Origin: the human T2T-CHM13v2.0 reference genome, Homo sapiens
DNA length: 64,000 bases
Strand: one strand, 5' to 3'
Assembly (NCBI RefSeq): GCF_009914755.1
Contig: NC_060944.1
Shown here: piece after piece, positions 55,671-57,761 of the stretch
How the letters are laid out: every line of letters begins with the position of its first letter
How positions within the stretch are numbered: position 1 is the stretch's first letter
Position numbers and translations under genes: made by a program
Notes under the pieces: generated by a model
The model's database searches: none
Seen by the model: the letters and a program-made list of their open reading frames with translations, nothing else
Told to the model about the DNA's origin: nothing

Positions 55671-55895
55671 AGATTTCTTTATGTGCCTATCTCTCCCACC
55701 AGCCTGAGCTCAGGGCAGGATGGCATCTCATCCATCACTACGGCACAGCCTGCAGTGCTCCCTAAGTGTTGGCTGTCGACAGTATTACTCTTCTGACCAG
55801 TGTTTGGATGGGGCCTACTTCAAGTTGTGTAAGGCAGGTGATGGGGGAGCAACCAAGGTATCAGAGGGATGGGACCTTTCCTATTATCTCCCCAG

Positions 55896-55993
55896 GACAT
55901 TTAGCCAATGCCACCACGGACCTCATGAAACTGGACCATGAAGAGGAGCCCCAGCTCTCCGAGCCCTACCTTTCTAAACAAAAGAAGCTCATG
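55896..55993 (+). CDS. GDAP1L1: GDAP1L1 coding exon 4 (98 nt; RHLANATTDLMKLDHEEEPQLSEPYLSKQKKLM)
   Basis: Acceptor tctccccag|GA, donor ATG|GTGAGT at 55994; phase 1-0 continues the frame. Confidence 0.96.
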
Positions 55994-56227
55994 GTGAGTA
56001 CCTCCCGGCCTGCTGAGTCCCCTTCCCTACGAGCTCTTCCACGGAAATGAACAATAGGAGAAACTAAGTAGAAGATCAGCTGATGATATGAAATGGAAAA
56101 GCCCCTGGCTTGCTTTTCCAATCCTGTCCCCTGCCATTTACTAGCTGTTAGACCTGGGGTAAGCCACTGCTGCCCTCGGGCCTCAGTTTCCTCATGTGTT
56201 AGGTTGTGTCTTTAAAAGCAGAGCATT

Positions 56228-56552
56228 GGCCAGGCATGGTGGCTCACTCCTGTAATCCCAGCACTTTGGGAGGCCAAGGCAAGTGGATCACTTGAGGTCA
56301 GGAGTTTGAGACCAGCCTGGCCAACATGGTGAAACCCCATCTCTACTAAAAATACAAAAATTAGCCGGGCATCATGGCGGATGCCTGTAGTCCCAGTTAC
56401 TCGGGAGGCTGAGGCAAGGAAATTGCCTGAACCTGGGAGGCGGAGGTTGCAGTGAGCTGAGATCGGGCCACTACACTCTAGCCTGGGCAACAGAGTGAGA
56501 CTCTGTCTCAAATAATAATAATTATAATAAATATATAAATAAATAAAAATAA
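56228..56552 (+). mobile_element. Alu in GDAP1L1 intron 4
   Basis: Alu consensus; TSD-like gcagagca(t/c)t. Confidence 0.95.
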
Positions 56553-57110
56553 ATGCAGAGCACTGAACAGGGGTTCTTGGGAAAGGAGGTATTGAAGGAT
56601 TGCTCTGAGGGGGACCCCAGAGGGATGGGAGGGATAAGGAAGAGGAAGCTGCTAAGCCTCAATTGATTCCACAGGAAGCTCTGGAGCACAAATGGCACCA
56701 CAAAGGTGATCAACCTTGAAGTAAGGGGCCAGCCTTTTATCCCCTCATATCAGTGGGACATTGGCTACAGATTGTTGGAGGGAGGGGTGCGGGCCGGTAA
56801 CCTCCCAGGTATTTGTGGGCAATGCAGCTCCTTATTGGCTGAGAGAAGGGGCAGCTGTGAGCCACTAGCAGCCAGCCCTCCCAGCATCTGGGTGTAAGAA
56901 TGTACTAGGGATCTAGGCAGGACAGCCAAGCTCACAGGACTGTTGTAGGCACCAGATGAGGGTGCTTCATAACGGGGGGGCATCCTATACACTTGGGGGG
57001 CATTTGGAGGCTGGGTTTGCAGAAGAAGTTCAGCAAAGCTCCTTCCATCCCTGAACATCCTGGCTCTATTGAGGCCAACTCAGCTTCTCTTGGCCCTGTC
57101 CTGCCCCCAG

Positions 57111-57225
57111 GCCAAGATCTTGGAGCATGATGATGTGAGCTACCTGAAGAAGATCCTCGGGGAACTGGCCATGGTGCTGGACCAGATTGAGGCGGAGCTG
57201 GAGAAGAGGAAGCTGGAGAACGAGG
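57111..57225 (+). CDS. GDAP1L1: GDAP1L1 coding exon 5 (115 nt; AKILEHDDVSYLKKILGELAMVLDQIEAELEKRKLENE); last exon is beyond the window
   Basis: Acceptor ctgcccccag|GCC, donor GAGG|GTGGGT at 57226; phase 0-1; GST-C helix. The C-terminal 'WLCG..FTLAD' and TM exon were not found in the window. Confidence 0.96.
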
Positions 57226-57582
57226 GTGGGTGCCAGCCCTGGGGGAGGTGGGGGCTGCAGCCCACCCAGCCTACTCTTCCCCTGCCCAGTCTCAGCCTCT
57301 TTTTTCCGCAAAAGTCTCAGAGGACCTCCCAGGTGGTTAAGAGGATGGGCTATGGAGTCAGACTAAGGTTCAAGTCATAACTTGGCCACTTCCTAGCTTA
57401 GTAAATGTGGTCAGGTTCTCCCCTCTCTGAAATTCAGTTTCCCATCTATAAAATGGGGATAATAGTAGGACCTGCCTCAAAGAGCTGTTGAGACATTGTG
57501 TGAAATAATACACGTAGAGTGCTTAGATCAGGGCTTAGCACACAGTAGGTGTTTAATAAAGGTAGGTGAAGATGATGTTAAG

Positions 57583-57721
57583 AGGCAGCTCATAGATGTC
57601 ATGGTTAGGGCCAGAACTTGTTCCCTCTCGATGGGTCCAGTGTTGTTTCCAGCATGTCACAACTGATACCACAAGCACAAGACCTTATGTCCCGAACAGA
57701 GACATCATCATGCATACTGAA
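57583..57721 (+). repeat. 139-bp direct duplicate of 58468-58606 (derived copy)
   Basis: aggcagctcatagatgtc...catcatgcatactgaa; 2 mismatches in 139. Confidence 0.95.
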
Positions 57722-57726
57722 TACTC

Positions 57727-57761
57727 GGTTGCTCCCCCATCACCTCCCTTACACAACTTGA
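57727..57761 (-). repeat. 35-bp inverted copy of 55820-55854
   Basis: ggttgctcccccatcacctcccttacacaacttga is the reverse complement of tcaagttgtgtaaggcaggtgatgggggagcaacc (34/35). Confidence 0.93.

What the first reader, a model, noticed from the sequence alone, without database searches (positions are those of the whole stretch)
55820..57761. A non-repeat 35-nt antisense element brackets GDAP1L1 exons 4+5, predicting an RNA stem that loops out an in-frame 71-aa cassette
Seen: 57727-57761 in intron 5 (+502 from the exon-5 donor) is the reverse complement of 55820-55854 (34/35), with looser pairing extending to 55864. The upstream arm sits 76-42 nt before the exon-4 acceptor, near the expected branch-point region. 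Exons 4+5 total 98+115=213 nt, and exons 3 and 5 both end in phase 1, so joint skipping is exactly in frame (-71 aa). The removed segment covers much of the GDAP1-family long helical insertion and the start of the GST-C helices. Established: long-range intronic duplexes promote skipping or back-splicing of the looped exons. Inference: a DNA repair accident (next finding) created a lineage-specific splicing switch or circRNA driver. I recall, unverified, that an annotated GDAP1L1 isoform lacks two consecutive in-frame exons.
Basis: partly seen in the sequence, partly recalled or inferred. Interest (0 to 1): 0.82.

Follow-up and report, generated by a model that had tools for sequence, protein, structure and literature searches.

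The report
Copied antisense patch bracketing two exons
A short stretch next to GDAP1L1 exon 4 was copied backwards into the intron after exon 5, so the RNA could pinch out both exons, but the two-exon-skipped form is annotated across vertebrates and so does not depend on this patch.

Summary
55820-55854 and 57727-57761 are reverse complements (34 of 35), extending loosely to 45 nt. No shuffle gave a match, and these are the only two copies in the genome. RefSeq NM_001256740.2 skips exactly exons 4+5.

The downstream arm is the end of a 179-nt patchwork (57583-57761). It consists of 139 nt copied forward from 885 nt downstream, fused at a shared CTGA to about 45 nt copied backwards from the end of intron 3. 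I read this as one serial template-switch (replication or repair) event, roughly 9-22 My old with a wide interval.

The claim that this accident created the splicing switch is not supported. 55 of 110 retrieved vertebrate GDAP1L1 proteins, from mammals to sharks, lack exactly the same 71 residues, and the paralogue GDAP1 has equivalent isoforms. Inverted Alus also bracket the same exons, with duplexes of 221-243 bp (-375 to -399 kcal/mol) against -66 for the arms.

In silico the arm helix forms, and it tips Alu competition from an exon-4-only loop to an exon-4+5 loop. A modulating role therefore remains possible but untested. Most likely it is a near-neutral passenger.

The parts
55820..55854 (+). 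Upstream arm, core (intron 3, 76-42 nt before the exon-4 acceptor); the presumed source of the copy
   Evidence: 34 of 35 complementary to 57727-57761. Only two copies in the genome.
55855..55864 (+). Upstream arm, loose extension; contains A55863, one of the better UnA-type branch-point candidates
   Evidence: 6 of 10 ungapped matches. The last upstream AGs are at -33 and -31, so the branch point is expected at about -36 to -22 (heuristic only).
57717..57761 (+). Downstream arm (intron 5): inverted copy of 55820-55864, core 57727-57761
   Evidence: The first four bases (CTGA, 57717-57720) also belong to the 139-nt direct copy.
57583..57721 (+). Copy A: derived 139-nt direct copy of 58468-58606, directly abutting the downstream arm
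   Evidence: 137 of 139 identical. Its left flank lacks the dispersed-repeat core: the query 57560-57830 found only 3 matches in the genome.
57583..57761 (+). The whole 179-nt patchwork, inferred to be one templated insertion made by two template switches
   Evidence: Two abutting pieces, each copied from elsewhere within 2 kb, one forward and one reversed, overlapping by 4 nt. That it is an insertion is inferred; no outgroup was available.
58468..58606 (+). Copy B: source of the 139-nt piece, lying in its native context inside an old dispersed repeat (MIR-like by recall)
   Evidence: 16 of 38 dispersed genome hits to 58400-58680 run 1-15 nt past the left edge of copy B. The inverted match 58436-58475 / 60887-60926 also crosses that edge.
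55896..55993 (+). GDAP1L1 exon 4 (98 nt), inside the loop
   Evidence: RefSeq. Its peptide aligns to GDAP1 residues 165-192.
57111..57225 (+). GDAP1L1 exon 5 (115 nt), inside the loop
   Evidence: RefSeq. Its peptide aligns to GDAP1 residues 195-229.
55377..55667 (-). Alu in intron 3, minus orientation: competing or cooperating long-range partner
   Evidence: Sub-threshold 7SL/SRP matches on the minus strand; masked repeat; inverted matches.
56222..56548 (+). Alu in intron 4, plus orientation; pairs with the intron-3 Alu to loop exon 4 alone
   Evidence: Duplex -398.6 kcal/mol, 243 bp. It forms in the MFE of 55300-58100 and excludes the arm helix.
58702..58971 (+). First Alu of intron 5, plus orientation; pairs with the intron-3 Alu outside the arms to loop exons 4+5
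   Evidence: Duplex -375.0 kcal/mol, 221 bp. It forms together with the arm helix in the MFE of 55300-59100.
59989..60297 (+). Second Alu of intron 5, plus orientation; another partner for the intron-3 Alus
   Evidence: Duplex -393.0 kcal/mol, 243 bp.

Best explanation
The inverted match is the footprint of one local copying accident. While DNA in intron 5 was being replicated or repaired, the growing strand switched template twice. It first copied 139 nt from 885 nt downstream in the same orientation. It then jumped, at a shared CTGA, to the opposite strand near the end of intron 3 and copied about 45 nt backwards, and finally returned. The result is a 179-nt patch (57583-57761) whose last 35-45 nt are antisense to the sequence just upstream of exon 4. 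In the pre-mRNA the two arms can pair into a 34-bp helix that closes a 1.85-kb loop holding exons 4 and 5. I judge that this helix is most likely a near-neutral passenger with at most a modest modulating effect. The in-frame exon-4+5-skipped mRNA is an old feature of the gene family that does not need the helix, and in humans much longer inverted Alu pairs already bracket the same exons. Shown here: the match, its uniqueness, the patchwork anatomy, the predicted helix, the annotated isoforms and the Alu pairs. Inferred: the template-switch mechanism, the direction of copying, the age, and the lack of a large effect.
For: Real and not chance: (no match in any of 100 shuffles). Only two copies in the genome. 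Patchwork anatomy: a 139-nt direct copy at 137 of 139 abuts the arm with a 4-nt overlap, and there is no homology beyond the arm ends. Direction of copying: copy B is continuous with a dispersed repeat, since 16 of 38 hits cross its left edge, whereas copy A lacks that repeat core; copy A is therefore derived, and the arm fused to it is most simply part of the same event. Divergence is 3 of 174 to 4 of 184, giving about 9-22 My with an interval of about 2-56 My. One mismatch in 35 is what neutral decay predicts given 2 of 139 in the neighbouring piece (Fisher p = 0.25), so nothing suggests constraint. The isoform is independent of the element: 55 of 110 retrieved GDAP1L1 proteins, from wood mouse, bat, whale, horse and wombat to snakes, birds, turtles, frogs, coelacanth, teleosts and sharks, lack exactly residues 183/184-253/254, and GDAP1 isoforms show the equivalent gap. 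Exons 4+5 together are one of only two in-frame skips available, the other being exon 3 alone, and both are RefSeq mRNAs. Stronger competitors: intron 3 carries only minus-strand Alus with 0 inverted partners inside the intron, and it faces plus-strand Alus in introns 4 and 5, with duplexes of -375 to -399 kcal/mol. The intron-4 Alu is transcribed about 1.2 kb before the downstream arm, and its pairing excludes the arm helix in nested folding.
Against: The helix is strong: -65.9 kcal/mol for the core and -72.4 extended. It is predicted with mean pair probability 0.965 in the 2.2-kb segment without Alus. With the first intron-5 Alu included, the MFE contains the arm helix plus the outer Alu pair. 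Shuffling the downstream arm flipped the MFE to the exon-4-only Alu pair in 4 of 4 trials. A helix-level model gave the same switch at all 10 truncation points from that Alu onward. The geometry resembles minimal circularisation-competent introns: in ZKSCAN1, 40 nt of repeat within an 87-nt upstream intron, and 36 nt downstream (PMC4201285, passages). Looped-out exons have lower inclusion genome-wide (PMC8052449, passages). The cross-species isoforms are computed gene models, and some may have been seeded by projecting the human protein, so the claim that the isoform is ancient is probable, not proven. No outgroup genome could be read, so the empty site is not shown.
Confidence: 0.6

Rival explanations
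1. One reading: the arm pair is a lineage-specific splicing switch or circRNA driver. The helix loops out exons 4+5 and is the main cause of the 71-aa-deleted mRNA and/or a 213-nt exon-4-5 circle in the lineage that carries it.
For: A stable helix is predicted. The arm length is within the 30-40 nt shown to suffice for circularisation (PMC4201285). The arms are the innermost and best-matched inverted pair between introns 3 and 5, at 91% identity against 75-81% for the Alu pairs. The skipped isoform is annotated in human.
Against: The same isoform is annotated in 55 of 110 retrieved vertebrate GDAP1L1 proteins and in the paralogue. The element's estimated age is tens of millions of years at most. 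Inverted Alus bracket the same exons. No paper mentions a GDAP1L1 circRNA: searches gave 4 and 0 papers, and the one paper opened (PMC9803679) concerned other circRNAs. Liang and Wilusz stress that not all repeats support circularisation, even stable ones.
Confidence: 0.12
2. Tie-breaker among Alu pairs. The arm helix does little alone. By adding about 60-70 kcal/mol to the intron-3 Alu x intron-5 Alu pairing, it shifts the competition away from the intron-3 x intron-4 Alu pairing. That pairing loops exon 4 alone, which is out of frame. The shift favours the in-frame exon-4+5 loop.
For: Without the arm helix, Alu i3 x i4 (-398.6) beats i3 x i5a (-375.0). The full MFE of 55300-59100 has i3 x i5a (218 bp) plus the arms (34 bp). 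4 of 4 arm shuffles revert to i3 x i4 (230 bp). The helix-level optimisation gives the same result at 10 of 10 truncation points.
Against: This is equilibrium thermodynamics only, and the MFE differences are just 5-10 kcal/mol out of about -1460. During transcription the i3 x i4 pair can form first. In cells Alu duplexes are bound and unwound by proteins (established knowledge, not tested here). In the helix-level model an outer Alu pair still loops exons 4+5 even without the arms.
Confidence: 0.12
3. Acceptor masking. The upstream arm covers the branch-point or U2-anchoring region of intron 3, so pairing slows or blocks use of the exon-4 acceptor rather than acting by looping.
For: The AG-free zone begins at -31, which places the branch point at about -36 to -22. 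The two best simple UnA candidates are A55841 (-55, in the arm core) and A55863 (-33, in the arm extension). Conserved long-range pairs avoid intronic branch points genome-wide (PMC8052449 discussion).
Against: The branch point is not mapped and the scoring is a crude heuristic. Blocking the exon-4 acceptor alone predicts an out-of-frame exon-4 skip, not the annotated in-frame double skip. 42 nt remain free between the core and the acceptor, similar to a working ZKSCAN1 minimal intron.
Confidence: 0.08
4. An ancient, selected long-range structure. Both arms are old and have been kept complementary by selection, and the adjacency to the 139-nt copy is coincidental.
For: The arms bracket an alternatively skipped, in-frame exon pair that is annotated across vertebrates.
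Against: The downstream arm is fused, with a 4-nt overlap, to a piece that is clearly a recent derived copy. Arm divergence matches that piece. The homology has sharp ends. The only difference inside the 35-nt core is a mismatch, not a compensated pair.
Confidence: 0.04
5. Chance match, or two members of a dispersed repeat family in opposite orientation.
For: Old MIR-like repeats lie nearby.
Against: None of 100 shuffles gave a match. There are only 2 copies in 3.1 Gb. No Rfam family overlaps either arm at E <= 1. Neither arm lies in a masked repeat of 100 nt or more.
Confidence: 0.01

Closest known systems
Intronic complementary sequences (reverse-complementary matches) that flank circularising exons; Liang and Wilusz 2014, PMC4201285
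   Same: Inverted complementarity of about 35-45 nt lies in the two introns flanking the exons. The upstream arm is a few tens of nt from the acceptor, as in the ZKSCAN1 minimal intron (87 nt containing a 40-nt repeat; 36 nt downstream). Longer Alu pairs compete.
   Different: The arms are not Alu-derived and are unique in the genome. No back-splice junction or any other experimental read-out is known for GDAP1L1. The downstream arm is 502 nt from the donor.
Exon loop-out by long-range pre-mRNA base pairing (pairs of conserved complementary regions; Kalmykova et al. 2021, PMC8052449)
   Same: The helix encloses whole exons that are annotated as jointly skipped. Looped-out exons show lower inclusion, more so for more stable pairs.
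   Different: Catalogued pairs are defined by conservation, whereas this pair looks evolutionarily young and derived.
Serial template switching during replication or repair (FoSTeS/MMBIR) and short template-switch mutations (Loytynoja and Goldman 2017, PMC5453318; Monttinen and Loytynoja 2022, PMC8794818, search listing only)
   Same: The inserted DNA is a patchwork of nearby sequence. One piece is in reverse complement, there is a short shared sequence at the internal junction, and the event creates a new inverted repeat able to form an RNA stem.
   Different: The published four-point model covers single switch-and-return events over tens of bp, and explicitly does not treat long-range or successive switches. 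Here there are two templates, 0.9 and 1.9 kb away. The result is a long-range pre-mRNA helix across exons rather than a local hairpin.
Inverted Alu pairs (IRAlus) across exons
   Same: The topology is the same. In this very gene they bracket exon 4, exons 4+5 and exons 2+3.
   Different: The arm pair is seven times shorter, much better matched (91% against 75-81%) and not a mobile element.

Membership tests
Intronic complementary sequences that drive back-splicing | Inverted complementarity of at least about 30-40 nt between the introns flanking the circularised exons | tested here: met
   34 of 35 in the core and 40 of 45 extended; -65.9 and -72.4 kcal/mol.
Intronic complementary sequences that drive back-splicing | Splice sites and branch point left accessible next to the repeat | tested here: inconclusive
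   42 nt lie between the core and the acceptor. The heuristic branch-point candidates lie at -22 to -36, and one (-33) is inside the loose extension. There is no experimental branch-point map.
Intronic complementary sequences that drive back-splicing | A back-splice junction (exon 5 donor to exon 4 acceptor) is observed | not testable with these tools
   Sequencing reads are off. No paper names a GDAP1L1 circRNA. The supplementary circRNA tables are closed.
Intronic complementary sequences that drive back-splicing | Disrupting the pairing abolishes the product and compensatory changes restore it | not testable with these tools
   This needs a minigene. Only in-silico shuffles were done.
Exon loop-out RNA structures (conserved complementary pairs) | Both arms conserved across species, ideally with compensatory changes | not testable with these tools
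   No other vertebrate genome is available. The indirect evidence (fusion to a derived copy; divergence 3 of 174) points to a young element.
Exon loop-out RNA structures (conserved complementary pairs) | The enclosed exons are alternatively skipped | tested here: met
   NM_001256740.2 lacks exons 4+5. However, the same skip is annotated in 55 of 110 retrieved vertebrate proteins, so the link is not specific to this helix.
Serial template-switch (FoSTeS/MMBIR-type) insertion | An insert built from two or more pieces templated from nearby sequence | tested here: met
   139 nt from +885 nt (137 of 139) and about 45 nt from -1.9 kb (42 of 46 aligned columns).
Serial template-switch (FoSTeS/MMBIR-type) insertion | At least one piece in inverted orientation | tested here: met
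   The arm is the reverse complement of 55820-55864.
Serial template-switch (FoSTeS/MMBIR-type) insertion | Microhomology at the switch points | tested here: inconclusive
   At the internal junction, 57717-57720 (CTGA) belongs to both templates. The two outer junctions cannot be judged without the empty ancestral site.
Serial template-switch (FoSTeS/MMBIR-type) insertion | Derived state: outgroups carry the uninterrupted site | not testable with these tools
Dispersed repeat or transposable element | Many copies across the genome | tested here: not met
   There are 2 matches in the whole genome for the arm region and 3 for the patch region. By contrast, the neighbouring repeat core gave 117 candidates.
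Known structured RNA families (Rfam) | A match to a curated covariance model | tested here: not met
   17 matches at E <= 1 in 54500-59500. Sixteen lie within the Alus, and the seventeenth (mir-302_2, 57407-57479, E 0.12) lies in intron 5 outside them. None overlaps either arm.

The most novel reading that the evidence does not exclude
A two-step template-switch accident in an ape or catarrhine ancestor created a unique 34-bp long-range helix that acts as a tie-breaker among competing inverted Alu pairs. It diverts GDAP1L1 pre-mRNA from a frame-breaking exon-4 loop to the in-frame exon-4+5 loop. That would raise production of an ancient isoform lacking much of the family-specific insertion, or of a 213-nt circle, in the brains of the carrier lineage. 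It would be a documented case of a DNA-repair footprint retuning an old alternative-splicing choice through RNA structure.
Probability: 0.1. Interest if true: 0.65.

Novelty: new member of a known kind. Interest (0 to 1): 0.3.

Why it matters
If the helix works, it would show how a single templated-insertion accident can create a long-range pre-mRNA structure across exons from non-repeat DNA. It would also show such a short, perfect helix deciding between much longer Alu pairings. That extends the idea that template switching creates RNA hairpins from local stems to exon-bracketing stems.

As it stands, the main value is corrective. The in-frame exon-4+5 skip of GDAP1L1 is annotated across vertebrates, and in GDAP1 too, so it is a property of the gene family and not of this element. 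The removed 71 residues correspond to GDAP1 residues of about 165-229, which include much of the GDAP1-specific insertion. The isoform itself may therefore deserve study.

Tried and rejected
Chance and repeat-family explanations were rejected.

I looked for weak homology beyond the arms, which would suggest a larger old inverted duplication, and found none above the shuffle scores.

Literature. 'GDAP1L1' with 'circRNA' gave 4 papers. I opened one (PMC9803679, passages), which concerns circRNAs from other genes. Four spellings of circGDAP1L1 gave 0 papers. 'GDAP1L1' with 'isoform' and 'exon' gave 20 papers (19 listed, seen as a listing only), none about exon 4/5 splicing judging by title or abstract. 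GDAP1L1 occurs 0 times in the main texts of PMC8052449 and PMC10573301. Their supplementary tables, and circRNA catalogues, were closed and may list this pair or a GDAP1L1 circle.

Structure prediction of the 296-aa isoform used alignment A1, which holds 53 of the 55 deletion isoforms; I left out P0002 and P0004 as truncated. It gave mean pLDDT 41.3 and pTM 0.38, poor even in the N-terminal GST domain. It says nothing about foldability, and I ran no fold search.

I could not test presence or absence of the patch in other primates, because no tool here holds non-human vertebrate genomes. I could not query with the spliced human isoform, because that would mean typing a joined sequence.

The branch-point analysis is a hand-made heuristic, not a trained predictor.

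The count of 55 of 110 is not an isoform frequency. The search admitted only proteins of 98-311 aa, so full-length 367-aa proteins were excluded by design, and 70 candidates without a named source were left out by the tool. The MIR identity of the neighbouring repeat is recalled, not tested.
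Full report
OBSERVATION. The two arms are in the sequence as described. The repeat finder lists arms 55820-55864 and 57717-57761: 45 nt, 89% complementary, with 1852 nt between them. 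Base by base, 40 of 45 positions match ungapped. The 35-nt core 55820-55854 / 57727-57761 has one mismatch, and four more fall in the 10-nt extension. A gapped alignment gives 42 of 46 columns. With the 35-mer as a pattern and up to 3 mismatches, the window holds exactly these two sites, and none of 100 dinucleotide-preserving shuffles produced a match. In the whole T2T genome the upstream arm region matches only itself and the inverted copy. The downstream region matches only itself, one nearby direct copy and the upstream arm. Neither arm lies in a masked repeat of 100 nt or more or matches any Rfam family at E <= 1. 'Non-repeat' is therefore correct, with the tool's caveat that very common words are skipped.

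WHAT THE ELEMENT IS. Immediately 5' of the downstream arm lies a 139-nt direct copy (57583-57721) of 58468-58606, identical at 137 of 139 positions. The last four bases of that copy, CTGA at 57717-57720, are also the first four bases of the inverted arm. So 57583-57761 is a 179-nt patchwork of two pieces. Each piece was copied from within 2 kb, one forward and one reversed, and they overlap by a 4-nt shared sequence. Homology to the intron-3 source stops sharply at both ends of the arm: flank scores were 15 and 19, no better than shuffles.

Which copy of the 139-mer is original can be judged from context. The left edge of 58468-58606 lies inside an old dispersed repeat, which I recall as MIR-like. 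Of 38 dispersed genome hits to 58400-58680, 16 run 1-15 nt across that edge, as does the inverted match 58436-58475 / 60887-60926. Copy A, in contrast, has no such repeat core on its left. Copy A is therefore derived, and the arm fused to it is most simply part of the same event.

I read this as serial template switching during replication or repair, of the FoSTeS/MMBIR kind. The published short template-switch model explicitly leaves out long-range and successive switches (PMC5453318, passages). Divergence between the copies is 3 of 174 or 4 of 184, depending on what is counted. That corresponds to about 9-22 My, with a 95% interval of about 2-56 My, at 0.5-1 x 10^-9 per site per year. One mismatch in 35 is what neutral decay predicts given the neighbouring 2 of 139 (Fisher p = 0.25), so the near-perfect match is no evidence of constraint. 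No outgroup genome was available, so both the 'insertion' and its age remain inferences.

CAN IT FORM IN RNA? The core duplex is -65.9 kcal/mol (34 bp) and the extended one -72.4. Folding 55700-57900 as one RNA puts the helix in the MFE, with a mean pair probability of 0.965 over the core.

The arms are not alone, however. Intron 3 carries two Alus, both minus-strand (52159-52464 and 55377-55666), and has 0 inverted partners within the intron. Intron 4 has one plus-strand Alu (56222-56548). Intron 5 begins with two plus-strand Alus (58702-58971 and 59989-60297), followed by eight more in both orientations (the orientation of the first three is confirmed by 7SL-like matches). The intron-3 Alu next to exon 4 pairs with these at -398.6 kcal/mol (intron 4, 243 bp), -375.0 (221 bp) and -393.0 (243 bp). 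Between introns 3 and 5 there are 23 inverted matches. The arm pair ranks 14th by score, but it is the innermost and best matched, at 91% against 75-81%.

When 55300-58100 is folded, the intron-3 x intron-4 Alu pair forms (230 bp) and the arm helix disappears (0 of 45 pairs), because it would be a pseudoknot. When 55300-59100 is folded, the MFE switches to the intron-3 x intron-5 Alu pair (218 bp) with the arm helix nested inside (34 bp). Shuffling the downstream arm returns the MFE to the exon-4-only Alu pair in 4 of 4 trials, with energy differences of 5-10 kcal/mol. A helix-level optimisation over 14 Alus plus the arms gives the same switch at all 10 truncation points from the first intron-5 Alu onward. 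In that model an outer Alu pair loops exons 4+5 even without the arms. These are equilibrium models. During transcription the intron-4 Alu appears about 1.2 kb before the downstream arm.

IS THE SKIPPING DUE TO THE ELEMENT? I searched named public proteins with the open frame around exon 3, scoring only the exon-3 residues, with a length window of 98-311 aa. I then aligned all 110 hits to the human protein assembled from the RefSeq exons. Fifty-five of the 110 lack exactly 71 residues at positions 183/184-253/254, with the end of exon 3 joined directly to the start of exon 6, as in the human skipped isoform. By the sources' own names they come from:
- mammals: goat, bison, wood mouse, a bat, a beaked whale, red squirrel, horse and wombat;
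- reptiles: snakes, lizards, a gecko, crocodile, turtles and tuatara;
- many birds;
- amphibians: a caecilian and frogs;
- coelacanth and about twenty teleosts;
- sharks and a ray;
- one record labelled lamprey.

Five proteins of the paralogue GDAP1 show a gap in the same place: 69 residues in a vole and a yak, and a less cleanly aligned gap in a condor, a gecko and a frog.

Two caveats apply. These are computed gene models, and some may have been seeded by projecting the human protein rather than by RNA-seq. Also, 55 of 110 is not a usage frequency, because full-length proteins were outside the length window. Even so, the simplest reading is that joint skipping of exons 4+5 is an old property of this gene architecture. 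It is one of only two in-frame skips the gene allows. The other is exon 3 alone, and both are RefSeq mRNAs, while the out-of-frame exon-2+3 skip is filed as non-coding. An element estimated at tens of millions of years at most cannot have created it.

PROTEIN CONSEQUENCE. The exon-4 peptide aligns to GDAP1 residues 165-192 (E about 0.08-0.17) and the exon-5 peptide to residues 195-229 (E about 4e-8) of the full-length chain 8exz_A. The mouse construct with the family-specific insertion deleted (6uih) matches only from residue 7 of exon 5 and is not among the exon-4 hits. The GDAP1-specific insertion is described as the alpha5-alpha6 loop plus the long alpha6 helix (PMC7873046, passages). An AlphaFold model of the 296-aa isoform was too poor to use (mean pLDDT 41.3).

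HOW IT MOST LIKELY WORKS. My best estimate is that the patch is a near-neutral footprint of a template-switch accident. Its RNA helix forms in some transcripts but adds little to what the Alu pairs and the exon phases already allow (confidence about 0.6 for origin and passenger status together, and about 0.8 for the origin alone). Three functional rivals remain open:
- a genuine switch or circRNA driver (0.12);
- a tie-breaker that steers Alu competition toward the in-frame loop (0.12);
- masking of the branch-point or U2-anchoring region of the exon-4 acceptor (0.08). The AG-free zone starts at -31. The two best simple candidates, A55841 and A55863, lie in the arm and its extension.

Precedents make each of these plausible. 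Repeats of 30-40 nt suffice for circularisation, in a geometry close to this one, although not every stable repeat works (PMC4201285). Looped-out exons are included less often, and conserved pairs avoid branch points (PMC8052449).

COMPARISON AND NOVELTY. The element works like a non-repetitive intronic complementary pair (a reverse-complementary match), and it originated like a serial template-switch insertion. Both kinds are known. It meets the sequence-level criteria of both. The criteria that would prove membership could not be tested here: a back-splice or skipping effect, compensatory mutagenesis, and an empty site in outgroups. No paper names a GDAP1L1 circRNA or discusses exon-4/5 skipping; supplementary catalogues were closed.

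VERDICT. I class it as a new member of a known kind, with interest 0.3. The boldest reading still allowed, a repair footprint acting as tie-breaker among Alu pairs and retuning an ancient isoform choice, has a probability of about 0.1.

Noticed in passing
window 26160-26890 and 37322-38533: A local inverted duplication about 11 kb apart, upstream of GDAP1L1: about 680 nt at 87% identity, plus a displaced 47-nt piece at 98%. It is not masked, and these are the only two copies in the whole genome. It may be another, older local rearrangement of the same general kind.
   Followed up: partly
window 49053-49328 (+), 52159-52464 (-), 55377-55666 (-): A plus-strand Alu in intron 1 and the two minus-strand Alus of intron 3 bracket exons 2+3. 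These are the exons missing from the RefSeq non-coding transcript NR_046353.3.
   Followed up: no
proteins P0081, P0090, P0067, P0089, P0091: The paralogue GDAP1 has annotated isoforms in a vole, yak, condor, gecko and frog that lack the segment equivalent to GDAP1L1 exons 4+5: 69 residues in two of them and a less cleanly aligned gap in three. The cassette skip therefore seems to be a family trait.
   Followed up: partly
window 55836-55849 with 55876-55889: When the long-range helix is not formed, the G-rich part of the upstream arm pairs in the MFE with the polypyrimidine tract of the exon-4 acceptor. This local hairpin could itself affect acceptor use.
   Followed up: no
window 57583-57721 and 58468-58606: The two 139-nt direct copies (98.6% identical) flank 746 nt that include the downstream arm. 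Recombination between them would delete the arm, so natural alleles without it may exist. Not tested.
   Followed up: no
window 58241-58287 / 58420-58466, and 57422-57478: Old dispersed-repeat fragments (MIR-like by recall) sit in both orientations within intron 5, forming weak inverted pairs of 47 nt at 72%.
   Followed up: no
window 50480-50641; 15284-15421 / 15755-15892; 12040-12082 / 12123-12165: Unmasked direct repeats: a tandem-like array with offsets of about 34 nt in intron 2, and two short dispersed direct pairs in the OSER1-DT region.
   Followed up: no
protein P0066: A 296-aa deletion isoform is labelled as coming from a lamprey, on a 23-kb contig. It is 77% identical to human and has the same junction residues as the teleost and shark proteins. 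The label may deserve checking.
   Followed up: no
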